Below, piece after piece: positions 5,039 to 24,436 of a stretch of 64,000 nucleotides of DNA (the first letter of the stretch is position 1; every line of letters starts with the position of its first letter). The notes beneath the pieces are model-generated. The model saw nothing but the letters and a program-made list of their open reading frames with translations. It searched no databases and was not told the origin of the DNA. Both the position numbers and the translations under genes were made by a program. The stretch is from NCBI RefSeq assembly GCF_057098645.1, contig NZ_CM169472.1; one strand, given 5' to 3'.

Positions 5039-6810
5039 CAGTAAAACTCCAGAATGGTGGATGTCAGCGGGGTGCTGATACCGGCGGTGAGTGGCTCATT
5101 TAACAGGGCGTGCATGGTCGCCCAGGCGAGGTCGGCGTGGCTGGCTTCCTCGCTGCGGCTGGCCTCATAGGTGGCGCTGCGTCCGCTGCTGGTCATGGTC
5201 TTGCGGATAGCCATAAACGAGCTGGTGATGTCGGTGGCGCTGACGTCATATTCCAGACAGCCACGGCGAATAACGTCTTTTGCCTTGAGCACCATTGCGG
5301 TTTTCATTTCCGGCGTGTAGCGGATATCGCGTGCGGCGGGATAGAACGAGCGAACGAGCTGGAACACGCCGACACCGAGGCCGGTGGCATCAATTCCGAT
5401 GTATTCGACGTTGTATTTTTCGGTGAGTTTGCGGATGGATTCAGCCTGGGTGGCAAAGTCCATGCCTTTCCACTGGTGACGTTCAAGTATTCTGAATTTG
5501 CCACCGGCCACCACCGGCGGTGCCAGCACCACGCATCCGGCACTGTCGCCACGGTGTGACGGGTCGTAACCAATCCATACCGGGCGGGAGCCGAACGGAT
5601 TGGCGGCAAAGGGTGCATAGTCTTCCCATTCTTCCAGCGTGTCGACCATGCAGCGTTGCAGCTCCTCGAACGGGAACACCGACGCCTTGTCGTCAACAAA
5701 TTCACACATGAACAGGTTTTTAAAATCGTCGGCGCTGTTTTCGCGTTTGAGCTGCTCAATGTCGAACAGCGTGCAGCCACCTTTCAGGGCGTCCTCAATG
5801 GTGACAATCTGTCGCCACTGGCCGTCCGCACAGAGAAGCCCACCGGCAAGGGCGTTATGACTGACGTCGATTTCCACGCGTTCGGCGGCGCTGGCGCGTC
5901 CCCGGTTATACAGTTCACCCGACCAGAACGGGTAGGCGTCGTGCGCCAGCGTGGACGGGGTGGAGAAATAGGTCGAACGCAGGTGACTCTGTGAGGCCAT
6001 ACCTGATGCCACCTTACGCAGTACCTGAAAATTCGGGATCCAGAAAATCTCGTCGACGTACAGGTCGCCGTTATGGCTCTGCGCGGTGTTGGAGTTGGTG
6101 CCGAGAAAAATCAGTTTTGCGCCGTTATTGCCCAGGACAATCGGATCACCGGTCAGGTCAACGTCAACCAGACGGGCAAAGGCGATGATGTATTCGCGGA
6201 ACACATACGCCTGCGTTTTACTGGCCGACAGAAAAATCTGGTTATGACCGGTTTTCAGGGCGCGCAGCAGCGCCTCGCGGGAAAAATAAAATGTCGCGCC
6301 AATCTGGCGGGATTTCAGGATATCGCGGATGCGGTGCTCAAGCCCGGCGCGATACCAGTGCAACTGATAATCGAAAGACTGCTCAAAGAAAATCTGCTCC
6401 AGCTTTTCGATGGCCTCGTCACTGAAAAAATTCTTTTTCGGTTTGCGCCGCCCGCCTTTGTTGCGGTTAGCGACGTTCGGATTAAGGTCTGCCTCGTTGC
6501 CGGTCTGGCTGTAGCGGTTTACCCGTGCCAGTCGTTCAATCTGGCGTCCGAGCAGGTCAATTTCCTTGAAATCACCGCCGGTTTTCTGCGGTTTGATGAT
6601 GAGCTGGGTCAGCCGCGCTTCCAGACTCATTTCGACACGGCTGATGGGGGCAACGCTGTCCCAGCCGTCGCGCTGTTTCCAGCTCTGCACCGTCGGGCGT
6701 TTCATCTGCAACATGGCGGCAATCTGCGGCACGGAAAATCCCTGCCAGTACAGCAGCGCCGCCTGACGACGCGGGTCGTGTAAAAGAGTGGTGTCTGTGG
6801 TGATGGTCAT
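5038..6810 (-). CDS. P: terminase large subunit / ATPase (P2 gpP-like)
   Basis: ORF track 5038..6840; start trimmed to internal Met (MTITTDTT...) giving 590 aa as in P2 P. Confidence 0.9.
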   Translation of the reverse strand: MTITTDTTLLHDPRRQAALLYWQGFSVPQIAAMLQMKRPTVQSWKQRDGWDSVAPISRVEMSLEARLTQLIIKPQKTGGDFKEIDLLGRQIERLARVNRYSQTGNEADLNPNVANRNKGGRRKPKKNFFSDEAIEKLEQIFFEQSFDYQLHWYRAGLEHRIRDILKSRQIGATFYFSREALLRALKTGHNQIFLSASKTQAYVFREYIIAFARLVDVDLTGDPIVLGNNGAKLIFLGTNSNTAQSHNGDLYVDEIFWIPNFQVLRKVASGMASQSHLRSTYFSTPSTLAHDAYPFWSGELYNRGRASAAERVEIDVSHNALAGGLLCADGQWRQIVTIEDALKGGCTLFDIEQLKRENSADDFKNLFMCEFVDDKASVFPFEELQRCMVDTLEEWEDYAPFAANPFGSRPVWIGYDPSHRGDSAGCVVLAPPVVAGGKFRILERHQWKGMDFATQAESIRKLTEKYNVEYIGIDATGLGVGVFQLVRSFYPAARDIRYTPEMKTAMVLKAKDVIRRGCLEYDVSATDITSSFMAIRKTMTSSGRSATYEASRSEEASHADLAWATMHALLNEPLTAGISTPLTSTILEFY

Positions 6811-6983
6811 GAATACCTCGCCGTGATGAATACACGGCAAGGCTACTGAGTCGCGCCCCGCGATTCGCTAAGGTGCTGTTGTGTCAGTGATAAGCCATCC
6901 GGGACTGATGGCGGAGGATGCGCATCGTCGGGAAACTGATGCCGACATGTGACTCCTCTAATCACTATTCAGGACTCCTGACA

Positions 6984-7838
6984 ATGGCAAAAAAAGTCTC
7001 AAAATTCTTTCGTATCGGCGTTGAGGGTGACACCTGTGACGGGCGTGTCATCAGTGCGCAGGATATTCAGGAAATGGCCGAAACCTTTGACCCGCGAGTC
7101 TATGGTTGCCGCATTAACCTGGAACATCTGCGCGGCATCCTGCCTGACGGTATTTTTAAGCGTTATGGCGATGTGGCCGAACTGAAGGCCGAAAAGATTG
7201 ACGATGATTCGGCGCTGAAAGGCAAATGGGCGCTGTTTGCGAAAATCACCCCGACCGATGACCTTATCGCGATGAACAAGGCCGCGCAGAAGGTCTATAC
7301 CTCAATGGAAATTCAGCCGAATTTTGCCAATACCGGCAAATGTTATCTGGTGGGGCTGGCCGTCACCGATGACCCGGCAAGCCTCGGCACGGAATACCTG
7401 GAATTCTGCCGCACGGCAAAACACAACCCTCTGAACCGCTTCAAATTAAGCCCTGAAAACCTGATTTCAGTGGCAACGCCTGTTGAGCTGGAATTTGAAG
7501 ACCTGCCTGAAACCGTGTTCACCGCCCTGACTGAAAAGGTGAAATCCATTTTTGGCCGCAAACAGGCCAGCGATGACGCCCGTCTGAATGACGTGCATGA
7601 AGCGGTGACCGCTGTTGCTGAACATGTGCAGGAAAAACTGAGCGCCACTGAGCAGCGCCTCGCTGAGATGGAAAACGCCTTTTCCGCACTTAAGCAGGAG
7701 GTGACTGACAGGGCGGATGAAACCAGCCAGGCATTCACCCGCCTGAAAAACAGTCTCGACCACACCGAAAGTCTGACCCAGCAGCGCCGCAGCAAGGCCA
7801 CCGGCGGTGGCGGTGACGCCCTGATGACGAACTGCTGA
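6984..7838 (+). CDS. O: capsid scaffolding protein (P2 gpO-like)
   Basis: ORF track 6918..7838; start trimmed to MAKKVSKFF; Ala/Glu-rich coiled-coil C-terminus; synteny. Confidence 0.88.
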   Translation: MAKKVSKFFRIGVEGDTCDGRVISAQDIQEMAETFDPRVYGCRINLEHLRGILPDGIFKRYGDVAELKAEKIDDDSALKGKWALFAKITPTDDLIAMNKAAQKVYTSMEIQPNFANTGKCYLVGLAVTDDPASLGTEYLEFCRTAKHNPLNRFKLSPENLISVATPVELEFEDLPETVFTALTEKVKSIFGRKQASDDARLNDVHEAVTAVAEHVQEKLSATEQRLAEMENAFSALKQEVTDRADETSQAFTRLKNSLDHTESLTQQRRSKATGGGGDALMTNC

Positions 7839-7892
7839 CCGGCGTCAGTCCGGGAAAACCTTCACGATTAACCCTTAATTTCAGGAAAAACT

Positions 7893-8966
7893 ATGCGCCA
7901 GGAAACCCGCTTTAAATTTAATGCCTACCTGTCCCGTGTTGCCGAACTGAACGGCATCGACGCCGGTGATGTGTCGAAAAAATTCACCGTTGAACCGTCG
8001 GTCACCCAGACCCTGATGAACACCATGCAGGAGTCCTCTGACTTTCTGACCCGCATCAACATTGTGCCGGTCAGCGAAATGAAAGGGGAAAAAATTGGTA
8101 TTGGTGTCACCGGCTCCATCGCCAGCACCACAGACACCGCCGGTGGCACCGAGCGTCAGCCGAAGGACTTCTCGAAGCTGGCGTCAAACAAGTACGAATG
8201 CGACCAGATTAACTTCGATTTTTATATCCGCTACAAAACGCTTGACCTGTGGGCGCGTTATCAGGATTTCCAGCTCCGTGTCCGTAACGCCATTATCAAA
8301 CGCCAGTCCCTTGATTTAATCATGGCCGGTTTTAACGGCGTGAGGCGTGCCGAAACCTCTGACCGCAGCAGTAACCAGATGCTGCAGGATGTGGCGGTCG
8401 GCTGGCTGCAGAAATACCGCAATGAAGCCACGGCGCGCGTGATGAGCAAGGTTACTGACGAGGAAGGTCACACGACCTCTGAGGTCATCCGCGTGGGTAA
8501 GGGCGGTGATTATGCCAGCCTCGATGCACTGGTGATGGATGCGACCAACAACCTGATTGAGCCGTGGTATCAGGAAGACCCTGACCTTGTGGTGATTGTG
8601 GGGCGTCAGCTACTGGCGGACAAGTATTTCCCCATCGTCAACAAGGAGCAGGACAACAGCGAGATGCTGGCCGCTGACGTCATCATCAGCCAGAAACGCA
8701 TCGGCAACCTGCCAGCGGTACGCGTCCCGTACTTCCCGGCGGATGCGATGCTCATCACGAAGCTGGAAAACCTGTCCATCTACTACATGGATGACAGCCA
8801 TCGTCGCGTGATTGTGGAAAACCCGAAACTCGACCGCGTGGAGAACTACGAGTCAATGAACATTGATTACGTGGTGGAAGACTACGCCGCCGGTTGTCTG
8901 GTGGAAAAAATTAAGGTCGGTGACTTCTCCACACCGACTAAAGTGACCGCAGAGCCGGGAGCGTAA
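7893..8966 (+). CDS. N: major capsid protein (P2 gpN-like)
   Basis: 357-aa ORF, same length as P2 N; synteny. Confidence 0.93.
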   Translation: MRQETRFKFNAYLSRVAELNGIDAGDVSKKFTVEPSVTQTLMNTMQESSDFLTRINIVPVSEMKGEKIGIGVTGSIASTTDTAGGTERQPKDFSKLASNKYECDQINFDFYIRYKTLDLWARYQDFQLRVRNAIIKRQSLDLIMAGFNGVRRAETSDRSSNQMLQDVAVGWLQKYRNEATARVMSKVTDEEGHTTSEVIRVGKGGDYASLDALVMDATNNLIEPWYQEDPDLVVIVGRQLLADKYFPIVNKEQDNSEMLAADVIISQKRIGNLPAVRVPYFPADAMLITKLENLSIYYMDDSHRRVIVENPKLDRVENYESMNIDYVVEDYAAGCLVEKIKVGDFSTPTKVTAEPGA

Positions 8967-10528: not shown

Positions 10529-10810
10529 ATGACAGCAGAAGAAAAAAGCGTCCTGTCGCTTTTCATGATTGGGGTGCTGATTGTTGTCGGCAAGGTGCTT
10601 GCCGGTGGTGAACCCATCACCCCGCGTCTGTTTATCGGGCGCATGTTGCTCGGTGGTTTTGTCTCGATGGTTGCCGGTGTTGTTCTGGTGCAGTTTCCTG
10701 ACCTGTCACTGCCTGCGGTGTGCGGCATCGGCTCCATGCTGGGTATCGCCGGTTATCAGGTGATTGAGATTGCCATTCAGCGCCGCTTTAAGGGCAGGGG
10801 GAAACAGTAA
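10529..10810 (+). CDS. Y: holin (P2 gpY-like)
   Basis: 93-aa ORF with hydrophobic helices, immediately upstream of the lysozyme gene. Confidence 0.85.
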   Translation: MTAEEKSVLSLFMIGVLIVVGKVLAGGEPITPRLFIGRMLLGGFVSMVAGVVLVQFPDLSLPAVCGIGSMLGIAGYQVIEIAIQRRFKGRGKQ

Positions 10811-11733
10811 TGCCGGTAATTAACACGCATCAGAATATCGCCGCCTTTCTCGACATGCTGGCGGTGTCCGAAGGGACGGCAAATCATCCGCTGACGAAAA
10901 ACCGGGGCTATGACGTGATAGTCACCGGACTGGACGGGAAGCCGGAAATCTTCACCGACTACAGTGACCACCCGTTCGCGCATGGCCGACCGGCGAAGGT
11001 GTTTAACCGTCGCGGTGAAAAGTCCACGGCCTCCGGTCGCTATCAGCAGCTTTACCTGTTCTGGCCGCACTACCGCAAACAGCTTGCCCTGCCGGATTTC
11101 AGTCCGTTGTCACAGGACAGACTCGCCATTCAGTTGATCCGCGAACGCGGTGCACTGGATGACATCCGGGCGGGACGCATTGAGCGCGCCATTTCACGCT
11201 GTCGCAATATCTGGGCGTCCCTGCCGGGTGCCGGTTACGGTCAGCGTGAGCATTCACTGGAAAAACTGGTCACCGTCTGGCGTACCGGCTTAAACGGAGT
11301 AAACACCATGAAGAAATTATCCCTTTCACTGATGCTGAATGTGTCGCTGGCGCTGATGCTGGCACTGTCACTGATTTACCCGCAGAGCGTGGCCGTCAGT
11401 TTTGTCGCTGCCTGGGCGATTCTGGCGACGGTTATCTGTGTGGTTGCCGGTGGTGTCGGCGTGTATGCCACTGAGTATGTACTTGAGCGCTACGGACGGG
11501 AGCTGCCGCCGGAATCGCTGGCCGTGAAGATTGTCACGTCGCTGTTTTTGCAGCCGGTGCCGTGGTGCAGACGGGCGGCGGGTCTGGTGGTGATGGTGGC
11601 GACGTTTATCTCGCTGGTCGCTGCCGGGTGGATTTTTACTGCACTGATTTATCTCGTGGCGTCGCTGTTTTTCCGGCTGATACGTAAAGCCTGTCGTCAG
11701 CGTTTTGAGGGGCGGGAACTATGTCAAAGCTGA
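10810..11733 (+). CDS. K: endolysin (P2 K-like lysozyme) reading through in frame into a LysA-like membrane domain (307 aa)
   Basis: N-terminal ~165 aa look like P2 K lysozyme; no stop codon before the LysA-like MKKLSLSLMLNV... segment in the same frame. Confidence 0.7.
   Translation: MPVINTHQNIAAFLDMLAVSEGTANHPLTKNRGYDVIVTGLDGKPEIFTDYSDHPFAHGRPAKVFNRRGEKSTASGRYQQLYLFWPHYRKQLALPDFSPLSQDRLAIQLIRERGALDDIRAGRIERAISRCRNIWASLPGAGYGQREHSLEKLVTVWRTGLNGVNTMKKLSLSLMLNVSLALMLALSLIYPQSVAVSFVAAWAILATVICVVAGGVGVYATEYVLERYGRELPPESLAVKIVTSLFLQPVPWCRRAAGLVVMVATFISLVAAGWIFTALIYLVASLFFRLIRKACRQRFEGRELCQS
11308..11733 (+). CDS. lysA: LysA-like membrane protein (possible internal in-frame start within the K reading frame)
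   Basis: ATG at 11308 in frame gives 141 aa, the length I recall for P2 LysA; hydrophobic segments. Confidence 0.5.
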   Translation: MKKLSLSLMLNVSLALMLALSLIYPQSVAVSFVAAWAILATVICVVAGGVGVYATEYVLERYGRELPPESLAVKIVTSLFLQPVPWCRRAAGLVVMVATFISLVAAGWIFTALIYLVASLFFRLIRKACRQRFEGRELCQS

Positions 11734-13263: not shown

Positions 13264-14508
13264 CTAAATCCAGCGAAGGTAGAATAGTAAGTAAGGATCT
13301 CTGATGTCTAATACATCGCTTTCTTGATCCCACTCGATAATACTGCTATTTGCAGCATCGTTGGCAATAGCAGTTGAGTGCTGACATGCACTGGTTATAC
13401 TAGAACCGCTTGGGCTATCGCCATGACATAACGAGGTCACTCGAGATACTAAGTCAGAATAACGAAATGTCAGCGTCGGAGGATTAGAAGCAATGGCTTT
13501 TAATAAAAAGACATAAACATCGCCTTGCCAGCCATCTTTTGATATATATGATTTTCTATCAGAACCACGCACTTTAGGTCCTTCGCGCATTTTATCCACA
13601 ATCGTGCTGTAATCTGCTGACTGAAGTGTACGTTTGCACACTCTTTGCAATGTGGCAATATCTTTTTGATATTTTATTGAAGTATCAGAAGTCTCTCTGA
13701 CATTCATTTCAAAACAAGAGTTTAAGCATAAATATTGCATTAGTTGTGGTGAGCCTGCGGACTCTTTTACTAACTCACTTATAACTTCATCAGAGGCATC
13801 TATATTGAGTAGTTTGAATCCTTTCTGAGCAATAATTTTTAAGGTTGATTCATCCCAATAATCAAAATCAATATTAAATATCCGGCCTCGTAAGTCAGAG
13901 TTACCCCGAAGAACATCATCAGAATGATATGGCACTGATGCACAAATAAATTTGCAGCCATTAGCTATGGCATCTTTTATTTGTCGTGATAGTTCGGCTT
14001 GAGCTTCTTTAGCAATATAGTGAAAATCATCGATAAAGATAACATAATCTGTGTTTGCGATTTCTCGCTTCATTAGTTGAAAGAGATCTATCGCAAATGA
14101 TTCTGAGGTTTGATCTGCTGTACTATAACCAGCGGATGCAGACCCTTTAAGACTACCTTTTGCTAAAATTACACCAGCTTGGGCAGATAATTCTCCTGTA
14201 CTTGAAAATGATGAGGTGCCAGTTTTACTTTGAACTTGGGTTACTGGTACACCAAGTATGTCGAAAACGCGCTTCCATAAATCATTAGCAGATTGAACCC
14301 CTGCTCCAGTTACTTCGATTAGCCTCTGGGTTCCAAGTACTTTCTTAACAAAGACAGTTTTTCCTGATTTTGATGGGCCAGAGATAGAAATCAGCATGGT
14401 GCCCATCTCAAGTGTATCGATTAACTGTTGCTGTTTAGATACTAGGTGATCCTCAACCAGTGTGTGGTTGGGATAACCGCCTGGGATAAAAACCTCTGTC
14501 GCCTTCAT
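13264..14508 (-). CDS. hypothetical P-loop NTPase; AT-rich cargo gene between S and V; candidate anti-phage defence ATPase
   Basis: 414-aa ORF; Walker A GPSKSGKT (aa 44-51, nt 14356..14379); Walker B YVIFIDD (aa 155-161); Ser/Thr/Gly-rich insert between them; opposite strand and lower GC than the phage backbone. Confidence 0.8.
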   Translation of the reverse strand: MKATEVFIPGGYPNHTLVEDHLVSKQQQLIDTLEMGTMLISISGPSKSGKTVFVKKVLGTQRLIEVTGAGVQSANDLWKRVFDILGVPVTQVQSKTGTSSFSSTGELSAQAGVILAKGSLKGSASAGYSTADQTSESFAIDLFQLMKREIANTDYVIFIDDFHYIAKEAQAELSRQIKDAIANGCKFICASVPYHSDDVLRGNSDLRGRIFNIDFDYWDESTLKIIAQKGFKLLNIDASDEVISELVKESAGSPQLMQYLCLNSCFEMNVRETSDTSIKYQKDIATLQRVCKRTLQSADYSTIVDKMREGPKVRGSDRKSYISKDGWQGDVYVFLLKAIASNPPTLTFRYSDLVSRVTSLCHGDSPSGSSITSACQHSTAIANDAANSSIIEWDQESDVLDIRDPYLLFYLRWI

Positions 14509-16507: not shown

Positions 16508-17111
16508 TTCGCGACTGCTGCCGACCGGCTCATCACCGCTTGAAGTCGCTGCCGCAAAAGCCTGTGCGGAAATTGAAAAAACGCCGGTCAGTATTCGTGA
16601 GCTGTGGAACCCGGACACCTGCCCGGCAAATCTGCTGCCGTGGCTGGCGTGGTCATTTTCGGTTGACCGCTGGGATGATAAGTGGCCGGAAGCGACAAAA
16701 CGCGCTGTTATCCGCGATGCGTATTTCATTCACTGCCATAAGGGCACTATAGGCGCAATCCGGCGTGTGGTGGAGCCGCTCGGCTATCTGATTGAGGTGA
16801 GGGAGTGGTGGCAGCTCAACGAGGAGCCGGGGACGTTCCGCATCGTTGTTGGCGTGCTTGAGCAGGGTATTACCGAGGAAATGTATCAGGAGCTGGAGCG
16901 CCTCGTTGCTGATGCAAAACCGGCAAGCCGCCATCTGACGGGACTGGCTATCAGTTTAAGTACAACCGGCAACATTTTTGCCGGTGCGGGATGCTATCAC
17001 GGTGACGCCCTGACGGTTTATCCCTACACCCCGGAGGCCATTATTGTCGGAGGGGATTATTTCCCGGCCTCGGCCATTCATTTAATTGATAACCTGAGAG
17101 TAAACGCATGA
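16500..17111 (+). CDS. I: baseplate protein (P2 gpI-like)
   Basis: 203-aa ORF overlapping J stop and H start; synteny. Confidence 0.85.
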   Translation: MSDSRLLPTGSSPLEVAAAKACAEIEKTPVSIRELWNPDTCPANLLPWLAWSFSVDRWDDKWPEATKRAVIRDAYFIHCHKGTIGAIRRVVEPLGYLIEVREWWQLNEEPGTFRIVVGVLEQGITEEMYQELERLVADAKPASRHLTGLAISLSTTGNIFAGAGCYHGDALTVYPYTPEAIIVGGDYFPASAIHLIDNLRVNA

Positions 17112-18388
17112 CAGTGAAATACTACGCCATTCTGACTAATCAGGGCGCAGCACGGCTGGCTAACGCGACGATGCTCGGCAGTAAGCTGAATCTGACGCAA
17201 ATGGCCGTTGGTGATGCGAATGGTGTCTTGCCGACACCAGACCCGGCACAGACAAAACTGATTAACCAGAAACGCATCGCGCCGCTGAATCTTCTGAGTG
17301 TTGACCCGAACAACCAGAGCCAGATTATTGCGGAGCAAATCATCCCTGAGAACGAGGGCGGATTCTGGATCCGTGAGATTGGGCTTTATGATGATGAAGG
17401 CGTACTCATTGCGGTGGCGAACTGCCCGGAAACGTACAAACCGCAGTTGCAGGAAGGCAGTGGTCGTACCCAGACTATCCGCATGATTCTGGTTGTCACG
17501 AATACCGAAGCTATTACGCTGAAAATCGACCCGTCGGTGGTACTGGCGACCCGTAAATACGTGGATGATGAAGTCCTGGAATTAAGGCTGTATGTGGATG
17601 ACCAGATGAGAAACCACATTGCCGCACAGGATCCTCATAGCCAGTATGCACAGAAACATAATCCGACATTTACCGGAGAACCAAAAGCGCCGACGCCTGC
17701 CGCAGGGAATAACACCACGCGGATTGCGACCACTGAGTTTGTTCAGGCCGCTATTACCGCTCTGATTAACGGTGCGCCAGCCACGCTGGACACACTGAAA
17801 GAAATTGCCGCAGCCATTAACAATGACCCGAAATTCAGTACCACCATTAACAATGCGCTGTCAGGTAAGCAGCCACTGGATGAGACGCTGACTCATTTGA
17901 GTGGAAAGGATGTTGCCGGTCTTCTCGCATACCTTGGTTTGGGAGAAGCGGCAAAACGGAATGTGGGCAACGGGGAAAACCAAATCCCTGATATGTCTTT
18001 CTGGACGGCTACTGGTGGCAATGGAAATTTTGTGATTCGTCAACCTGACGGGCTAATCATTCAGATGGTTACTGTAAGTATAAGCGGCCCAGTGGCGATG
18101 AATGGAATGACTGATAATGCTTATGCCATCACAGGTTCTAATAAGTCTTATATTGCCACAGCCACATTGCCCTTTGTATTTCCTAATAAGGTGCTGGGCG
18201 TTATCCCTCTGGTATCAACAACAGCCTATGGTGGTGTATCCAGTAATATTACAGGTTCATACGCGACGGCGGTTTGTTCTTTTGCCGCTGTCAGGGGGAA
18301 TAATACGATTGTGTTCAAAGTCGACAAACCACTGAATGCAGCCTTTCCTTCAGATACCAGCGTCTCAGCGTTAATCATTGGACGGTAA
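17108..18388 (+). CDS. H: tail fibre protein (P2 gpH-like); C-terminal part lies inside the invertible segment
   Basis: 426-aa ORF; crossover site inside the gene at the LGLGE motif; followed by a tail-fibre assembly gene. Confidence 0.88.
   Translation: MTVKYYAILTNQGAARLANATMLGSKLNLTQMAVGDANGVLPTPDPAQTKLINQKRIAPLNLLSVDPNNQSQIIAEQIIPENEGGFWIREIGLYDDEGVLIAVANCPETYKPQLQEGSGRTQTIRMILVVTNTEAITLKIDPSVVLATRKYVDDEVLELRLYVDDQMRNHIAAQDPHSQYAQKHNPTFTGEPKAPTPAAGNNTTRIATTEFVQAAITALINGAPATLDTLKEIAAAINNDPKFSTTINNALSGKQPLDETLTHLSGKDVAGLLAYLGLGEAAKRNVGNGENQIPDMSFWTATGGNGNFVIRQPDGLIIQMVTVSISGPVAMNGMTDNAYAITGSNKSYIATATLPFVFPNKVLGVIPLVSTTAYGGVSSNITGSYATAVCSFAAVRGNNTIVFKVDKPLNAAFPSDTSVSALIIGR
17922..17947. other. 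site-specific recombination (crossover) site of a Gin/Hin-family invertase, left copy, inside H
   Basis: TTCTCGCATACC-TT-GGTTTGGGAGAA; right half is the reverse complement of the left half of the site at 22512..22537. Confidence 0.6.
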
Positions 18389-18390
18389 GA

Positions 18391-18945
18391 ATGAACTCAG
18401 TATTCTTTTCACCCGGAAGTAAAAGTTTTTATCTGCAAGAATTGTTTCCAGAATATGAGGATGCGGGAACGCTTCCTGATGATGTTATTGAAATTACCCG
18501 AGAAACATATGAGCAATTTCTTGGGCTGCATCCAGAAGGGAAAGAAATTGGCGCTGACAGTTCAGGACGGCCAATATGGATTAATTCCCCGCCGCCTTCA
18601 AAAGAGGATGAGGTGCTGGCGGCTGAAATGAAAAAAATATCTTTGGTTTCAGAAGTCAATACCTACATCAATACCCATCAGTGGCCTGGCAAAGCTGCTA
18701 TTGGTCGTCTGAAAGGTGACGAGCTGGAACAATATAATTTATGGCTGGATTATCTGGACGCACTGGAACTGGTTGATACCTCCAGTGCTCCAGATTGCGT
18801 ATTCCGCTCTATTCGATCACGGATTGGCATCGAAGTCCGATCAGCGATTCGCATCCATTCGATCAACCGGGAACTTAACTTTTTCTACCGCTTTTTAACG
18901 CGTTTTTTCGCTGCTTTCCACTACCGGGGGATTTTTCCTCAGTGA
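18391..18945 (+). CDS. G: tail fibre assembly protein (gpG-like) with C-terminus replaced by IS-derived sequence
   Basis: 184-aa ORF; native sequence ends at ...DTSSAPD (nt ~18795), then reads into the IS21-family element. Confidence 0.7.
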   Translation: MNSVFFSPGSKSFYLQELFPEYEDAGTLPDDVIEITRETYEQFLGLHPEGKEIGADSSGRPIWINSPPPSKEDEVLAAEMKKISLVSEVNTYINTHQWPGKAAIGRLKGDELEQYNLWLDYLDALELVDTSSAPDCVFRSIRSRIGIEVRSAIRIHSINRELNFFYRFLTRFFAAFHYRGIFPQ

Positions 18946-19650
18946 CTCTCCCTGAAGGACCACTCGGTGTGAGTTATGTACCAGTCTGTCCAGGATGGCA
19001 TCTGCTGTTGTTGGGTTCTCCATCAGACCATGCCATTTATCTACCGGGAACTGGCTTACCACTATCGTGCTGCTTTGTCCGTAACGATCCTCTATGAGCT
19101 CCAGAAGGTCATTACACTGGGCGTTACTTAACTGTTCCAGCCCCAGATCGTCCAGGATTAGAACCTGTATTTTTTGCAACTGTTTCAGATATTTCAGCCA
19201 GCTGCCATCAACACGTCCCTGAGCCAGTTGTTCCAGTAATCGCCCGGTTCTACAGTACCGGACGCTGTGTTTCTGTCGACATGCCTGTTCGCCCAGCGCA
19301 TTGGCTATCCAGCTCTTGCCACATCCTGTCGGACCGGTTATCAGCAGGTTTTTCCTGTGGGTTATGTAGTGGCCGTTCAGCAGTTCTCTCATCTGTTCAG
19401 CCCGCAGACCTCTTGAGGCCGGATAGCGCAGCCCTTCCGGTGTTGCCTGGTATTTCAGGCCGGCATTTTTTCTCAACCGTGCCACACGGCTGTTTTCCCT
19501 GCTCAGAAGCTCGTCATCAACCAGCAGCGTCAGCCTTTCCTCGAACGACAGTTCGTCGTAGGTCTGAGGCGTTTCCCGCTGCCGTATCAGGCTCCCGGCC
19601 ATCGCCGGGAGTTTCAGTTGGGTCAGTTTGTTTAACAGGTTATCACTCAT
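18895..19650 (-). CDS. istB: IS21-family helper ATPase IstB
   Basis: Walker A GPTGCGKS, Walker B VLILDDLG; start trimmed to MSDNLLNKL within ORF-track 18895..19893. Confidence 0.9.
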   Translation of the reverse strand: MSDNLLNKLTQLKLPAMAGSLIRQRETPQTYDELSFEERLTLLVDDELLSRENSRVARLRKNAGLKYQATPEGLRYPASRGLRAEQMRELLNGHYITHRKNLLITGPTGCGKSWIANALGEQACRQKHSVRYCRTGRLLEQLAQGRVDGSWLKYLKQLQKIQVLILDDLGLEQLSNAQCNDLLELIEDRYGQSSTIVVSQFPVDKWHGLMENPTTADAILDRLVHNSHRVVLQGESLRKNPPVVESSEKTR

Positions 19651-19666
19651 ACTGTTGTTCCTTCTG

Positions 19667-21202
19667 TCAGTGGTAGTAGCCCGGACCACGCAGGTTTTCA
19701 TGCTCTGAAGCATATGCCGGATGTTGTTCGCCCTGGCGGGATAATGGAAGCTCCAGGTTCTCCCGATGGTGACGCAGCAGATTGTCGATAAAGCGTCTGT
19801 CAGGGGCGTTATAGTGCAGGGCAACGTAACAGGCCTTTTCCAGCCGTTCCGGGCCGTATTTTTTCTGAAGTGCCAGCAGCCCCAGAACTGCACGATAAGC
19901 CAGTTCCGGATGGGGTTTTGCCTTCAGCATGGATTCAACCACCCGGCCTGTGGACGGGCCCGTACGTTTTCCCTGCTCGATCAGGCGTTCCGGTGTCCAT
20001 GTCCCGTGCTGCCGGTGGCGCTCTGGCATGTGAAGCGGATTGGTTGTGTGTTTATATTCATGTGTGCTGCGCGGATGTTGCGCCACACACTGCCCCTTGT
20101 GCCAGAGCTGTACCACCGACTGCCCCGCCTTCAGTGACAGACGCTGACCGACCAGTTCGTGTGGAACGGAGTACCAGTGACGGGCATATTCAACGTGGTA
20201 GTCAGGGCCAACCTTCACAGCTTTGTATTCCGTGTATTCATAAGGTGCCAGAGGCAGCGGAGAGAGTGCTGGCGCATCCAGTATGCGGAAGCGTTCTGCA
20301 CGGGTTTGATTGCCGTACCCCTTCATTGGCCGGTTATTCATGTCTGTCAGTAACTCCCTAAGGCGCGCATTCAGCGCCCTGAGCGTGTGGAAGGTTTCAT
20401 TACGGATGCGGGCAAGAAGCCATCGTTCAACGATGAGGACGCCGTTTTCTGCTTTTGGTTTATCTTTAGGTTTGCGTGGTCGGGCCGGGATGATAACCGT
20501 GCCATAGTGCTCAGCCAGTGCCTGATAACTGTCGTTGATGACAGGCTCATATCGATCGGCCTTTTTCACTGCGCTTCTGAGGTTATCGGGGATGAGCAGC
20601 TTCGGTACGCCGCCCAGGAAGGTCAGGCAACGGCTGTGGGCATTTAACCATGACATCATGTCCTGACCTTCGCACGCTTCAACGTAGGTATAGTTGGACG
20701 CCCCCATTACGGCCACGAAGATTGCCACGCGGCGTATCTCACCGGTGTCCGGATTAATAACAGGAACCGTAGGACCACAGAAGTCGATAAAAAGCTTTTC
20801 GCCGGCACGATGCTCCTGGCGCATGGAGAGACGTCGCGTTTTTTTCCACTCCCGGTAGCAACGGCAGAAGTGCGAGTATCCCATCGCTTTGTTACCCGCC
20901 TGTGCCTTGTATTCCATCCACAACAGTTGCCGCGTCACACCTGGTTTTCTCATTTCCGTATCGAAGTACAACATGTCAGGCATTACAAGCTCTGATGCAA
21001 AGGTGTCTTTGGGCGGAAAAATGAGTTTCTCCAGCGTGTCATGGGATATATCAGCAGGTAATGGCCATGACAGAGAAGAGGCTTTGAAGCGGGCAAGAAC
21101 CTCAAAAACGGTTGAGGCGCTGATGTGTAACGTCAGTCCGATACAACGGTTAGTCAGCTTCTTGTCGAACTTGAGCTGAAGGATCTTAAAACAGGTTTCC
21201 AT
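19667..21202 (-). CDS. istA: IS21-family transposase IstA
   Basis: N-terminal HTH then DDE-type core; start trimmed to METCFKIL within ORF-track 19667..21313 (track start is a TTG). Confidence 0.88.
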   Translation of the reverse strand: METCFKILQLKFDKKLTNRCIGLTLHISASTVFEVLARFKASSLSWPLPADISHDTLEKLIFPPKDTFASELVMPDMLYFDTEMRKPGVTRQLLWMEYKAQAGNKAMGYSHFCRCYREWKKTRRLSMRQEHRAGEKLFIDFCGPTVPVINPDTGEIRRVAIFVAVMGASNYTYVEACEGQDMMSWLNAHSRCLTFLGGVPKLLIPDNLRSAVKKADRYEPVINDSYQALAEHYGTVIIPARPRKPKDKPKAENGVLIVERWLLARIRNETFHTLRALNARLRELLTDMNNRPMKGYGNQTRAERFRILDAPALSPLPLAPYEYTEYKAVKVGPDYHVEYARHWYSVPHELVGQRLSLKAGQSVVQLWHKGQCVAQHPRSTHEYKHTTNPLHMPERHRQHGTWTPERLIEQGKRTGPSTGRVVESMLKAKPHPELAYRAVLGLLALQKKYGPERLEKACYVALHYNAPDRRFIDNLLRHHRENLELPLSRQGEQHPAYASEHENLRGPGYYH

Positions 21203-21299
21203 AGTGCTCCTGGATTTTCTCTTTCTGGACATTGACGTCTCCACTGGTTTAAACACGGCAATGGAGACTGTGGTGAAAAGAGTTAATTCCCGGAGTGAC

Positions 21300-21434
21300 T
21301 GGCAGGATGCCAATCAATGATCGGAAGCATGCCAAATCGTGATCGATTGTGATGCCAAACTGTGATCGGAGATGGATGCCAAATCATGATCGATTCGAAT
21401 GCCAAACTGCGATCGATTCAGATGCCATTTTGCA
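21300..21434. repeat. tandem ~20-bp terminal repeats of the IS21-family element (transposase binding sites)
   Basis: five to six copies of GATGCCAAA(C/T)NGTGATCGAT-like units; similar units inverted at the other end (18796..18880). Confidence 0.7.
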
Positions 21435-21450
21435 CCAGATATTGAATGGC

Positions 21451-22056
21451 CTACGCCTCCGGTAGTTCAGGCCAGATGACATCCGGCGCGGTGCTGATAT
21501 CTGTTGCAGTCACCGCGTCAATGTAATCCAGCACAGCGTTAAGCCGGGTTGTTTCTGCCTGCGTCAGCTTCCGCCCGGCCTGCAATTTCAGCTGAATCAG
21601 ACTAATGGAAGCCATAGCCGCATCAATCAGTGACTGGCGCCGTACTTCTGCCGCGTCTACTGCGGCGTTATGCTGTGCCTCAGTGTCGGTCACCCATTTC
21701 TCACCATCCCATTTATCGTATGACGTTAACGGGGCGATAGTGGTTGTATTTTCAGGGTAATCACCCGGAACTGTGATTTCTTTTGATTCTCCTGTTTCGG
21801 TGCTATAGACGATTTCACCGCGATGGTCTGGCACATATTCCCATGAGTTAAAATCTGCAGAACGGCAAATTGCATAACCAGCTTTATATGAGCCAGGAGC
21901 ATCTAAACAGGAACATGCCGGGATACCGACACCCACAGCAAGATATTCAGTTGATGTGGAAATATATTCCCGTGTTTCACCATCATAATTATAAACGGTA
22001 ATGTCTCCGGCCTTTGTGGCGATGAGTTCATTATTTAATACAGCTTTACTTATCAT
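21451..22056 (-). CDS. tail fibre assembly protein, alternative copy in the invertible segment
   Basis: 201-aa ORF ending ...APDVIWPELPEA; directly downstream of the alternative fibre C-terminal cassette. Confidence 0.85.
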   Translation of the reverse strand: MISKAVLNNELIATKAGDITVYNYDGETREYISTSTEYLAVGVGIPACSCLDAPGSYKAGYAICRSADFNSWEYVPDHRGEIVYSTETGESKEITVPGDYPENTTTIAPLTSYDKWDGEKWVTDTEAQHNAAVDAAEVRRQSLIDAAMASISLIQLKLQAGRKLTQAETTRLNAVLDYIDAVTATDISTAPDVIWPELPEA

Positions 22057-22565
22057 GCAGCCCTCACAATATAATTAAAGGCGATGTTACGGGAGCGGGT
22101 TTCAGATGCTGTGCGAACTGAGCGAGATGCGTCGAATGTCCAGTTATAAGCGCCATAACCCTCAATAATTTCGGCTTCCTTTAGACCTGTAGATAATACT
22201 TGCCCATGTTGACTAAATGGCCCTGAACTAAGTACGTCTCTAAAAAGCTGGGTACGCCCAAAAGAACCAACAATATTCTGAATTGCATCATTCTGTGCAG
22301 ATAATAAGTTACGACCAGAGTCAATCCCGCGCCCATCATCCCAGCCACGAATAAATTCACCGCGTAAATCTGGTAATTTTAATGTTGGGTAAGCCTTTGC
22401 CAGATTTGGGTACTTTTCAGAAGAAAATACTGCTCCGTTACATTTTAGCCACCCCATTGGCGGAGTGGCTGAAGGCCACGGAACAGGCACACCAACCGGT
22501 AATGCAGAGCCTTCTCCCAAACCAACGTTTAAGAAAATGCAGAGATTATGTCTAACTGGCATCAT
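22053..22565 (-). CDS. alternative tail fibre C-terminal cassette (promoterless; expressed only after inversion fuses it to H)
   Basis: ORF contains the same NVGLGE junction motif as H at the crossover site; lies between the right crossover site and the alternative assembly gene. Confidence 0.75.
   Translation of the reverse strand: MMPVRHNLCIFLNVGLGEGSALPVGVPVPWPSATPPMGWLKCNGAVFSSEKYPNLAKAYPTLKLPDLRGEFIRGWDDGRGIDSGRNLLSAQNDAIQNIVGSFGRTQLFRDVLSSGPFSQHGQVLSTGLKEAEIIEGYGAYNWTFDASRSVRTASETRSRNIAFNYIVRAA
22512..22537. other. site-specific recombination (crossover) site of a Gin/Hin-family invertase, right copy
   Basis: TTCTCCCAAACC-AA-CGTTTAAGAAAA fits the TTnTCnnAAACC-nn-GGTTTnnGAnAA consensus with one mismatch; adjacent to the invertase gene. 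Confidence 0.65.
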
Positions 22566-22592
22566 CTCCGGTTTTTATTCAGGGGGATGCTC

Positions 22593-23186
22593 ATGCTTAT
22601 TGGCTATGTACGCGTGTCAACAAATGACCAGAACACGGAATTGCAGCGTAATGCGCTGGAGTGCGCAGGATGTGAGCTGATTTTTGAGGACAAAATCAGC
22701 GGCACGAAGTCCGACAGGCCGGGGCTGAAAAAACTGCTCAGAACATTATCGGAAGGTGACACTCTGGTTGTCTGGAAGCTGGACAGGCTGGGGCGTAGTA
22801 TGCGGCATCTGGTCATTCTGGTTGAGGAACTGCGCGAACGCGGCGTTAATTTTCGCAGCCTGACGGATGCTATTGATACCAGCACGCCGATGGGGCGTTT
22901 TTTCTTTCATGTGATGGGTGCCCTGGCTGAAATGGAGCGAGAACTCATTGTCGAGCGGACACGCGCCGGACTGGAAGCGGCCAGAGCCAAAGGTCGTATT
23001 GGTGGCAGACGACCGAAACTCACCGCGAGTGAGTGGGAGCAGGCCGGGCGTTTGCTGGCTGCAGGGGAGTCACGTCAACGCGTGGCACTGATTTTTGATA
23101 TTGGTCTGTCCACGCTCTATAAAAAATTTCCCTCATCAGCGACAAAGAATAAATTGTGTCATCCCTTAGCCAACCGGGACAAATAG
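22593..23186 (+). CDS. serine DNA invertase (Gin/Hin/Cin/Pin family)
   Basis: MLIGYVRVSTNDQ catalytic-serine N-terminus and C-terminal HTH; start trimmed from ORF-track 22548. Confidence 0.9.
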   Translation: MLIGYVRVSTNDQNTELQRNALECAGCELIFEDKISGTKSDRPGLKKLLRTLSEGDTLVVWKLDRLGRSMRHLVILVEELRERGVNFRSLTDAIDTSTPMGRFFFHVMGALAEMERELIVERTRAGLEAARAKGRIGGRRPKLTASEWEQAGRLLAAGESRQRVALIFDIGLSTLYKKFPSSATKNKLCHPLANRDK

Positions 23187-23245
23187 CCTGACATCTCCGG
23201 CACAACTGAAAATATCACTCACCCATTAACCACGGAGTTAAACGG

Positions 23246-24436
23246 ATGAGTGACTATCATCACGGCGTGCAGGTGCTGGAGATTAACGACGGCACCCGCG
23301 TCATTTCCACCGTATCCACGGCCATTGTCGGCATGGTCTGCACGGCCAGCGATGCAGATGCGGAAACCTTCCCCCTCAATAAACCGGTGCTGATTACCAA
23401 TGTGCAGAGCGCAATTGCAAAGGCCGGTAAAAAAGGCACGCTGGCGGCGTCGTTACAGGCCATCGCTGACCAGTCAAAACCGGTCACCGTTGTTGTGCGC
23501 GTGGAAGACGGCACCGGCGACGACGAAGAAACGAAACTTGCGCAGACCGTTTCCAATATCATCGGCACCACCGACGAAAACGGTCAGTACACCGGACTGA
23601 AAGCCCTGCTGGCGGCGGAGTCGGTAACCGGTGTTAAACCGCGTATTCTCGGCGTGCCGGGACTGGATACCAAAGAGGTGGCTGTTGCACTGGCATCAGT
23701 CTGTCAGAAGCTGCGCGCTTTCGGGTATATCAGCGCATGGGGCTGTAAAACCATTTCCGAGGTGAAAGCCTACCGCCAGAATTTCAGCCAGCGTGAGCTG
23801 ATGGTCATCTGGCCGGATTTCCTCGCATGGGATACGGTCGCCAGTACCACTGCCACCGCGTATGCCACCGCCCGTGCACTGGGGCTGCGTGCCAAAATCG
23901 ACCAGGAGCAGGGCTGGCATAAAACGCTGTCCAATGTCGGGGTGAACGGTGTTACCGGCATCAGCGCGTCCGTATTCTGGGATTTGCAGGAGTCCGGCAC
24001 CGATGCTGACCTGCTTAACGAGTCAGGCGTCACAACGCTGATTCGCCGTGACGGTTTCCGCTTCTGGGGTAACCGTACCTGCTCTGATGACCCGCTGTTC
24101 CTCTTTGAAAACTACACCCGCACCGCGCAGGTGCTGGCCGACACGATGGCTGAGGCGCACATGTGGGCGGTGGACAAGCCCATCACCGCAACGCTGATTC
24201 GCGACATCGTTGACGGCATCAATGCCAAATTCCGTGAGCTGAAAACAAACGGCTATATCGTGGATGCGGCCTGCTGGTTCAGCGAAGAATCCAACGATGC
24301 GGAAACCCTCAAGGCCGGAAAACTGTATATCGACTACGACTATACACCGGTGCCTCCTCTCGAAAACCTGACCCTGCGCCAGCGTATTACCGATAAATAC
24401 CTGGCAAATCTGGTCACTTCGGTTAACAGCAATTAA
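23246..24436 (+). CDS. FI: tail sheath protein (P2 gpFI-like)
   Basis: 396-aa ORF, same length as P2 FI; synteny. Confidence 0.93.
   Translation: MSDYHHGVQVLEINDGTRVISTVSTAIVGMVCTASDADAETFPLNKPVLITNVQSAIAKAGKKGTLAASLQAIADQSKPVTVVVRVEDGTGDDEETKLAQTVSNIIGTTDENGQYTGLKALLAAESVTGVKPRILGVPGLDTKEVAVALASVCQKLRAFGYISAWGCKTISEVKAYRQNFSQRELMVIWPDFLAWDTVASTTATAYATARALGLRAKIDQEQGWHKTLSNVGVNGVTGISASVFWDLQESGTDADLLNESGVTTLIRRDGFRFWGNRTCSDDPLFLFENYTRTAQVLADTMAEAHMWAVDKPITATLIRDIVDGINAKFRELKTNGYIVDAACWFSEESNDAETLKAGKLYIDYDYTPVPPLENLTLRQRITDKYLANLVTSVNSN

What the first reader, a model, noticed from the sequence alone, without database searches (positions are those of the whole stretch)
18790..21440. IS21-family insertion inside the invertible segment rewrites the C-terminus of the current assembly gene
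An ~2.6-kb istA-istB element with multiple terminal repeats is flanked by the direct repeat CCAGAT. Removing it in silico joins ...SSAPD to IEWPTPPVVQAR-stop, a typical assembly-protein C-terminus mirroring APDVIWPELPEA of the alternative copy. The insertion therefore replaces the last ~13 residues of gpG with ~45 IS-encoded residues and more than doubles the invertible segment. Virions assembled in the current orientation may lack functional fibres while the inverted orientation remains intact.
Basis: seen in the sequence. Interest (0 to 1): 0.55.

Follow-up and report, generated by a model that had tools for sequence, protein, structure and literature searches.

The report
Known IS inside phage tail-fibre switch
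A well-known jumping gene (ISSso4, IS21 family) has landed near the end of a tail-fibre chaperone gene inside the flip-flop host-range switch of a P2-like prophage of E. coli; this is real and cleanly documented, but it is ordinary prophage damage.

Summary
Window 18796-21434 is a 2639-bp intact copy of ISSso4 (IS21 family). It has minus-strand istA and istB, TG...CA ends and multiple terminal repeats, and it is flanked by the 6-bp duplication CCAGAT. Deleting the IS plus one repeat gives a sequence 100.0% identical over 1021 nt to E. coli EA7, where the gene encodes a 147-aa tail fibre assembly protein ending ...SSAPDIEWPTPPVVQAR.

The insertion removes 12 residues, including W138, P139 and P142, which are invariant in 89 homologues. 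It adds 49 IS-encoded residues.

The IS lies inside a Gin-type invertible segment bounded by crossover sites at 17922-17947 and 22512-22537. The segment grows from 1945 to 4590 bp. EA7 carries the same cassette in the opposite orientation.

The alternative fibre tip and its chaperone, the invertase and both crossover sites are intact.

Loss of fibre assembly in the present orientation only is a reasonable inference, but it is untested.

The event is unremarkable. A different IS21-family element (ISEc12) interrupts the same gene 60 bp upstream in strain EP91A. This prophage also carries a second lesion, a 14-bp deletion fusing the endolysin gene to lysA.

Interest is low: a known IS, a known phage module and a known kind of event.

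The parts
17108..18388 (+). Tail fibre gene H as currently assembled (426 aa): constant part up to the crossover at about 17934, then variable tip HvA
   Evidence: ORF. Aligns with pro483 H and lies after I, J, W and V. The collinearity switch against EA7 falls at 17931-17948.
17922..17947 (.). Left 26-bp crossover site, TTCTCGCATACC-TT-GGTTTGGGAGAA, inside H
   Evidence: Inverted repeat I3. Half-site analysis and the EA7 recombinant site are; the orientation breakpoint is.
18391..18795 (+). tfaA (gpG-like tail fibre assembly gene), codons 1-135, still native
   Evidence: 99.9-100% identical to the EA7 gene for WP_032262100.1. Pfam Caudo_TAP PF02413.
18391..18945 (+). Present fusion ORF, 184 aa: Tfa residues 1-135 plus 49 residues read from the IS end (CVFRSIRSRIGIEV...RGIFPQ)
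   Evidence: The Pfam match is shortened to model positions 2-124 of 131 and scores 81.2 bits, against 98.5 bits for the restored protein. This exact product is not on record in public assemblies.
18790..18795 (.). Target-site duplication CCAGAT, left copy
   Evidence: The empty site in EA7 holds a single copy.
18796..21434 (-). ISSso4 (IS21 family), 2639 bp, intact
   Evidence: 100% identical full-length copies elsewhere. 99.7% over 2639/2639 to the pCT copy that PMC6361801 names ISSso4.
18895..19650 (-). istB, AAA+ helper ATPase, 251 aa
   Evidence: NF038214 at 257.8 bits, cutoff 200. Same coordinates as RefSeq istB WP_001282653.1 in identical copies.
19667..21202 (-). istA, transposase, 511 aa
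   Evidence: NF033546 at 284.7 bits, cutoff 160. Matches RefSeq istA WP_045147483.1 in identical copies.
21306..21434 (.). istA-proximal IS end, with at least 5 direct copies of the GATGCCAAnnnnnGATCG(A/G) terminal repeat
   Evidence: Repeat families D1 and D2 and inverted repeats I1, I2 and I10-13. Motif scan: 5 matches against 0.12 expected.
18796..18865 (.). istB-distal IS end, with 2-3 inverted copies of the same terminal repeat
21435..21440 (.). Target-site duplication CCAGAT, right copy
21441..21479 (+). Orphaned 3' end of tfaA: codons 136-147 (IEWPTPPVVQAR) plus the stop. It overlaps the 3' end of tfaB by 29 bp.
   Evidence: The same 29-bp convergent overlap is annotated in EA7 and pro483.
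21451..22056 (-). tfaB, the alternative tail fibre assembly gene (201 aa), intact. Its stop codon lies 10 nt from the duplicated CCAGAT.
   Evidence: ORF. 99.9% identical and ungapped against EA7 tfaE. 88.5% aa identity over the full length of the pro483 homologue.
22053..22524 (-). HvB, the silent alternative fibre tip, which joins the H constant part after inversion
   Evidence: ORF. 99.9% identical and ungapped against the EA7 H gene, where it is the expressed tip.
22512..22537 (.). Right 26-bp crossover site (reverse complement TTTTCTTAAACG-TT-GGTTTGGGAGAA)
22593..23186 (+). Gin/Pin/Cin-type serine DNA invertase, 197 aa, intact
   Evidence: E 1.6e-94 to Mu Gin (PDB 3UJ3) over residues 1-182 of both. 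98% aa identity and the same length as the pro483 invertase.

Best explanation
Shown. A P2-like (Peduovirus) prophage sits next to ycaP-focA-pflB in an E. coli-type chromosome. It carries a Gin-type invertible tail-fibre cassette in which two alternative fibre tips, HvA and HvB, and their chaperones, tfaA and tfaB, are arranged convergently. An intact, apparently recently acquired copy of ISSso4 (IS21 family) transposed into codon 135/136 of tfaA and made a 6-bp duplication. tfaA is the chaperone gene that is in the expressed position in this assembly. The invertase, both crossover sites, HvB and tfaB are untouched.

Inferred. The resulting protein keeps the N-terminal fibre-binding domain and the helices of the conserved C-terminal domain. 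It loses the invariant ...IxWPxxP tail and gains a 49-residue basic, aromatic-rich extension. It is therefore probably a poor or dead chaperone, and particles made in this orientation would lack correctly folded HvA fibres. The invertase should still be able to flip the enlarged 4.6-kb segment. In the flipped state HvB and tfaB would be expressed normally, and late-operon transcripts leaving tfaB would run in the sense direction into istA-istB.

Overall this is ordinary IS-mediated prophage decay, not a new system.
For: IS identity and ends.

Duplication and empty site: 100.0% over 1021 nt to EA7.

No other record of this insertion: none of 5426 complete E. coli genomes has the IS at this site, and the junction and the fusion product are absent from public collections. 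Together with 100% IS identity and a perfect duplication, this suggests a recent, strain-specific event.

Invertible segment: inverted 26-bp sites with the same central TT, the opposite orientation in EA7 with breakpoints inside those sites, and an invertase close to Gin. Inversion in P2-like E. coli prophages is documented experimentally (PMC4272514).

Likely functional damage: W138, P139 and P142 are invariant and I136 is nearly invariant in 89 homologues. The Pfam score drops from 98.5 to 81.2 bits with the last model positions lost. The AlphaFold2 model gives pLDDT 94 for residues 131-140, so that stretch is predicted to be ordered. The conserved C-terminal domain of Tfa proteins is held to mediate trimerisation and assembly (PMC9608196, summarising North et al. 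2019).

Ordinary decay: ISEc12 sits in the same gene in EP91A, frameshifted and truncated alleles exist in public data, and this prophage has a second lesion in K/lysA.
Against: No experiment or structure shows that the last 12 residues are essential. 92% of the protein, including all predicted helices (H71-95, H98-103, H109-126), is retained.

I could not inspect model coordinates or model the fibre-chaperone complex.

Whether the prophage is inducible at all is unknown. The int-C-cox-B region lies outside the window, and the K::lysA fusion may already impair lysis.

Continued inversion of the 4.6-kb segment and read-through into istA are inferred only. The simple terminator scan found nothing between tfaB and istA, but it is a weak test.
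Confidence: 0.85

Rival explanations
1. The insertion is phenotypically silent. The Tfa::IS fusion still chaperones HvA, because the fibre-binding N-terminal domain and all helices of the C-terminal domain are retained.
For: Only 12 of 147 residues are lost. The predicted helices end at residue 126. Natural variants tolerate changes and extensions after the WPxxP motif, for example P0005 at 163 aa and P0009.
Against: No full-length homologue among 89 lacks W138, P139 or P142. The region up to residue 140 is predicted ordered with pLDDT 94. A 49-residue basic, aromatic-rich tail is appended.
Confidence: 0.25
2. The prophage was already defective, so the IS hit is neutral decay with no consequence for any virion.
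For: A 14-bp deletion between GGCGTACCG repeats fuses endolysin K to LysA, and the best-matching E. coli homologues lack it. Many decayed alleles of this tfa exist. The early region is not visible in the window.
Against: All other late genes from Q to ogr align full length with phage pro483 at 56-100% aa identity, without truncation. The invertase and both cassettes are intact.
Confidence: 0.35
3. The 3' part of this tfa gene is a preferred target for IS21-family elements, or its disruption is selected. The insertion would then be a recurrent event and not a random one.
For: Two unrelated IS21-family elements, ISSso4 here and ISEc12 in EP91A, are inserted 60 bp apart in the same gene and in the same orientation.
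Against: There are only two events. The duplications of eight ISSso4 copies share no consensus. Other lesion types, such as frameshifts and a probable IS1 junction, hit the same gene.
Confidence: 0.1
4. The IS junctions are an assembly artefact, with a repeat collapsed or misplaced during assembly.
For: No other genome or metagenome record has this junction.
Against: Both junctions are exact IS ends with a perfect 6-bp duplication of a sequence present once in the empty site. That is the signature of transposition, not of misassembly.
Confidence: 0.02

Closest known systems
ISSso4 (IS21 family; Shigella sonnei and E. coli, e.g. the copy in plasmid pCT)
   Same: 2639/2639 nt at 99.7% to the pCT copy and 100% to many E. 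coli copies. Same istA/istB organisation, TG...CA ends, multiple terminal repeats and 5-7 bp duplications.
   Different: Nothing in the element itself; only its location is new. ISfinder could not be queried, so the name rests on the RefSeq family label and on PMC6361801.
Invertible tail-fibre region of Peduovirus pro483 and other P2-like E. coli prophages
   Same: Same gene order: H, tfa (147 aa), a convergent tfa overlapping it by 29 bp, an alternative H tip, a 197-aa invertase, then FI. The late genes are 92-100% identical. Inversion in P2-like prophages has been shown experimentally (PMC4272514).
   Different: The variable cassette is a different allele: tfaA is 46% and HvB 54% identical at the protein level to pro483. 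pro483 has no IS. The cassette here is 99.9% identical to that of E. coli EA7.
Mu G segment/Gin, P1 C segment/Cin and e14 P segment/Pin (Din family of DNA-inversion systems)
   Same: The invertase matches Gin at E 1.6e-94. The 26-bp imperfect-dyad crossover sites lie in inverted orientation, one of them inside the fibre gene. Alternative fibre tips and Tfa chaperones are arranged convergently.
   Different: The host phage is P2-type, not Mu or P1. The native segment is only 1.95 kb. The enhancer was not examined.
ISEc12 insertion in the same tfa gene of E. coli EP91A (NZ_CP149815)
   Same: An IS21-family element in the same gene, the same cassette orientation and the same IS orientation, 60 bp upstream.
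   Different: A different IS (no meaningful DNA similarity), a different codon (about 115) and a shorter 123-aa truncated product.

Membership tests
IS21 family insertion sequence | Two consecutive genes: istA (transposase) followed by istB (AAA+ helper ATPase) | tested here: met
   NF033546 at 284.7 bits (cutoff 160) and NF038214 at 257.8 bits (cutoff 200). The genes are co-oriented, 16 nt apart.
IS21 family insertion sequence | Ends 5'-TG...CA-3' with imperfect inverted repeats containing multiple repeated motifs | tested here: met
   The ends read TGCG...TGCA. There are 5 motif matches confined to the ends against 0.12 expected.
IS21 family insertion sequence | Short target-site duplication (4-8 bp) made on insertion | tested here: met
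   CCAGAT on both sides and once in the empty site. Other copies have 5-7 bp duplications.
IS21 family insertion sequence | Occurs as a discrete mobile unit in unrelated contexts | tested here: met
   Full-length copies at 99.7% identity or more in chromosomes and plasmids with different neighbours. 1778 of 5426 genomes have matches, with up to 34 places per genome.
Din-family (Gin/Cin/Pin/Hin) DNA-inversion system | Adjacent small serine invertase with a catalytic N-terminal domain and a C-terminal HTH | tested here: met
   E 1.6e-94 to Gin (PDB 3UJ3) across residues 1-182. The query has ...VRVS..., aligned with VRVA in 3UJ3.
Din-family (Gin/Cin/Pin/Hin) DNA-inversion system | Two 26-bp imperfect-dyad crossover sites in inverted orientation with identical central dinucleotides | tested here: met
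   Sites at 17922-17947 and 22512-22537, half-sites of the TTCTCnnAAACC type, central TT in both.
Din-family (Gin/Cin/Pin/Hin) DNA-inversion system | Both orientations of the segment occur | tested here: met
   EA7 carries the 99.9% identical cassette inverted relative to the flanks, with breakpoints inside the crossover sites and recombinant site halves as expected. This compares genomes. It does not show inversion within this strain.
Din-family (Gin/Cin/Pin/Hin) DNA-inversion system | Fis-dependent recombinational enhancer in cis (usually in the 5' part of the invertase gene) | not tested
   Fis sites are too degenerate for the available scans. The IS does not touch the invertase gene.
Tail fibre assembly protein (Pfam Caudo_TAP PF02413; P2 gpG / Mu gpU / lambda Tfa type) | Match to the family profile over its full length | tested here: met
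   Restored protein: 98.5 bits, model positions 2-130 of 131. Present fusion: 81.2 bits, model positions 2-124 of 131.
Tail fibre assembly protein (Pfam Caudo_TAP PF02413; P2 gpG / Mu gpU / lambda Tfa type) | Variable N-terminal beta domain plus a conserved C-terminal helical domain, encoded directly downstream of the fibre gene | tested here: met
   AF2 model: strands in residues 4-65, helices at 71-126, mean pLDDT 93. Conservation is concentrated in residues 97-142. The gene starts 3 nt after the H stop.
Tail fibre assembly protein (Pfam Caudo_TAP PF02413; P2 gpG / Mu gpU / lambda Tfa type) | Chaperone activity on the cognate fibre | not testable with these tools
   Needs co-expression or complementation.

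The most novel reading that the evidence does not exclude
The IS converts a two-state host-range switch into an ON/OFF switch. In the present orientation the prophage would make fibre-less, non-infectious particles. After inversion it would make infectious HvB particles, and the phage late tail operon would read in the sense direction through tfaB into istA-istB. Transposase expression would then be coupled both to lytic induction and to the state of the invertase switch, giving phase-variable, phage-driven transposition.
Probability: 0.08. Interest if true: 0.4.

Novelty: already known. Interest (0 to 1): 0.15.

Why it matters
It matters little beyond annotation. The 184-aa ORF should be annotated as an IS-disrupted tail fibre assembly pseudogene, and the 2.6-kb element as ISSso4.

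It is a tidy example of an IS knocking out only one arm of a phase-variable host-range switch. It could serve as a natural orientation-specific mutant for testing whether the conserved C-terminal WPxxP tail of Tfa chaperones is needed.

It also shows that prophage tail-fibre cassettes are hit repeatedly by IS elements.

Tried and rejected
- A PDB sequence search with the restored Tfa gave only chance hits; Mu Tfa (5YVQ) was not retrieved.
- Foldseek of the AF2 model against the PDB gave nothing significant. The nearest thematically relevant hit was the cyanophage Pam3 fibre entry at E 1.6.
- NCBIfam has no model that matches either Tfa or H.
- An exact look-up of the 184-aa fusion product found nothing on record.
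- A 31-nt left-junction pattern had 0 matches in genome contigs and 0 in metagenome contigs. The source genome and any sibling insertions were therefore not found.
- No phage record contains this IS.
- The promoter scan was at background (6 found against 7.4 expected). Terminator-like hits were above the shuffle mean (15 against 6.6) but scattered inside coding sequence, and I draw nothing from them.
- The original North et al. 2019 paper is not in the library, so its conclusions are cited second-hand from PMC9608196.
- Rejected: the idea that the current C-terminus is native. The empty site is 100% identical, and the WPxxP motif is invariant in homologues.
- Rejected: the idea that the 197-aa invertase is extended or damaged. 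It has the same length as the pro483 invertase and is 98% identical to it.
Full report
**What is at the coordinates**

Window 14.6-29.8 kb is the late region of a P2-like (Peduovirus) prophage. Every late gene from Q to ogr aligns over its full length with Escherichia phage pro483, most at 92-100% amino-acid identity. The flanking host DNA, ycaP-focA-pflB-ycaO, matches E. coli at 99.3%.

Downstream of I lie the tail fibre gene H (17108-18388, 426 aa) and, 3 nt later, an ORF of 184 aa (18391-18945). On the other strand are an istB/istA pair, then a 201-aa ORF (21451-22056) and a 170-aa ORF (22053-22565). A serine recombinase gene follows on the plus strand.

**The insertion sequence**

The element runs from 18796 (TGCG...) to 21434 (...TGCA), 2639 bp.

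- **Ends.** A search of 5426 complete E. coli genomes found full-length copies, query positions 1-2639, at 100% identity in unrelated chromosomal and plasmid contexts. Matches occur in 1778 genomes, with up to 34 places per genome.
- **Genes.** IstA (19667-21202, 511 aa) scores 284.7 bits against NCBIfam 'IS21 family transposase' (cutoff 160). IstB (18895-19650, 251 aa) scores 257.8 bits against 'IS21-like element helper ATPase IstB' (cutoff 200).
- **Terminal repeats.** The ends carry the multiple terminal repeats typical of the family. The motif TGCCAAAYYGYGATCGA occurs five times, only at the two ends, against 0.12 expected.
- **Name.** RefSeq labels the identical IstB as 'ISSso4 family'. 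The copy in plasmid pCT, which PMC6361801 names ISSso4, is 99.7% identical over 2639/2639 nt. I therefore call it ISSso4, although ISfinder itself could not be consulted.

**Target-site duplication and empty site**

CCAGAT flanks the element at 18790-18795 and 21435-21440.

Seven other copies show duplications of 5, 6, 6, 6, 7 and 5 bp, plus one junction without a duplication, which probably reflects a rearrangement. Six base pairs is therefore normal for this IS.

Removing the IS and one CCAGAT gives a sequence that matches E. coli EA7 at 100.0% over all 1021 nt tested. A further 26 records match at 99% or more. In EA7 the gene is annotated as a 147-aa tail fibre assembly protein, WP_032262100.1.

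So 12 residues are lost and 49 IS-encoded residues are gained.

I found no other record of this insertion:

- None of the 5426 complete genomes has the IS at this site.
- The fusion protein is not on record.
- The junction is absent from the genome and metagenome collections.

Combined with the 100% identity of the IS to other copies and the perfect duplication, this suggests a recent, strain-specific insertion.

**The invertible segment**

A 26-bp site in H, 17922-17947 (TTCTCGCATACC-TT-GGTTTGGGAGAA), is inverted relative to 22512-22537 (reverse complement TTTTCTTAAACG-TT-GGTTTGGGAGAA).

Against EA7, the interior 17931-22525 is collinear at 99.9% identity apart from the IS. The flanks (H constant part and invertase) align in the reverse direction at only 85-88% identity. 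The breakpoints fall inside the two sites, and EA7 carries the reciprocal combination of site halves. EA7 therefore holds the same cassette in the opposite orientation.

The recombinase (22593-23186, 197 aa) matches Mu Gin (PDB 3UJ3) at E 1.6e-94 over residues 1-182. It has the same length as the pro483 invertase and is 98% identical to it.

Inversion in P2-like prophages of E. coli has been shown experimentally (PMC4272514).

The segment measures 4590 bp with the IS and 1945 bp without it, so 'more than doubles' is correct.

The IS with its duplication ends 10 nt beyond the stop codon of the alternative chaperone gene tfaB. tfaB, the alternative tip HvB, both crossover sites and the invertase are all intact.

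**Likely consequence (inferred)**

- The restored protein matches Pfam Caudo_TAP (PF02413) over model positions 2-130 of 131 at 98.5 bits. The fusion matches only positions 2-124, at 81.2 bits.
- In an alignment of 89 homologues of 50-98% identity, W138, P139 and P142 are invariant and I136 is nearly so. All lie beyond the insertion point at D135.
- An AlphaFold2 model (mean pLDDT 93) shows an N-terminal beta domain and helices at 71-126. Residues 131-140 still have pLDDT 94, so that stretch is predicted to be ordered and not a floppy tail.
- Published work summarised in PMC9608196 assigns fibre binding to the variable N-terminal domain of Tfa proteins, and trimerisation and assembly to the conserved C-terminal domain.

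I therefore think it more likely than not (about 0.6) that the fusion is a defective chaperone. Particles assembled in the present orientation would then lack functional HvA fibres. The flipped orientation, with HvB and tfaB, would be unaffected.

tfaB shares only 27% identity with tfaA, confined to the C-terminal region. Cross-complementation is therefore unlikely. In addition, tfaB is antisense to the late operon in this orientation.

None of this is tested.

**A further inference**

After inversion, istA-istB would lie co-oriented with and immediately downstream of tfaB. The simple scan shows no terminator-like site between them, so late transcripts might read into the transposase genes.

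**Why this is ordinary**

- In E. coli EP91A a different IS21-family element, ISEc12, interrupts the same gene at about codon 115. That is 60 bp upstream of the site here, and the IS is in the same orientation.
- Public protein sets contain frameshifted, truncated and chimeric alleles of the same gene.
- This prophage has a second lesion. A 14-bp deletion between GGCGTACCG direct repeats removes the endolysin stop and fuses K to LysA in one 307-aa ORF. The best-matching E. coli homologues all have the extra 14 nt.

The picture is a prophage accumulating damage. It is not a new mechanism.

**Verdict**

The structural interpretation is supported. The functional interpretation is plausible but unproven.

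Nothing here is novel in kind: a known IS, a known phage module and a known type of event. Interest is 0.15.

Noticed in passing
L011 (E. coli EP91A NZ_CP149815) 5604-8182; equivalent to window 18729-18735: A different IS21-family element (ISEc12, about 2.58 kb, TG...CA ends, 5-7 bp duplication around CAATA) interrupts the same tfa gene at about codon 115. It lies 60 bp upstream of the ISSso4 site, and its istA/istB have the same antisense orientation. This is either coincidence or a local IS21-family target preference.
   Followed up: partly
window 10810-11733 (deletion point near 11278/11279): Endolysin K and LysA form a single 307-aa ORF. A 14-bp deletion between two GGCGTACCG direct repeats removes the K stop codon relative to pro483. 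The best E. coli matches all span 315 nt for this 301-nt query, so they have the extra 14 nt. This is probably a second lesion of the prophage.
   Followed up: partly
window 13264-14508 (-): A 414-aa P-loop protein is inserted between tail genes S and V. It is absent from pro483 and matches the PADLOC candidate defence family PDC-S59 (E 2.8e-31). It is probably an anti-phage cargo gene.
   Followed up: partly
window 2352-3674 (+): A 440-aa ORF lies between replication gene A and portal gene Q, the position of the P2 old/tin cargo hotspot. It has no PADLOC match and its function is unknown.
   Followed up: partly
window 17931-22525 versus L001 (E. coli EA7) 5541-7490: The invertible cassette is 99.9% identical between the two prophages, while the adjoining H constant part and the invertase are only 85-88% identical. 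The cassette appears to be exchanged as a module bounded by the crossover sites.
   Followed up: partly
proteins P0033, P0037, P0038, P0097, P0083, P0035 (homologues of window 18391-18795): Public alleles of this tfa include frameshifts at the A7 run (GAAATGAAAAAAATA). One allele (P0083) ends in ...GNDSNLLIVFYVQIMPDDFVMQLHRF, which I recall as read-through of an IS1 end; this is untested. Another (P0035) is a chimera of Tfa residues 1-79 and the invertase C-terminus, joined at a shared AEM.
   Followed up: no
window 17000-23400: Terminator-like hairpins number 15, against 6.6 +/- 2.5 in shuffles. Several lie on the plus strand inside the IS, antisense to istA/istB. Their significance is unknown.
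   Followed up: no
window 1-2268: The window begins exactly at the ATG of the P2 A-type replication gene (755-aa ORF, 95% identical to pro483 A). The int-C-cox-B region is outside the window, so the completeness of the prophage cannot be judged.
   Followed up: no
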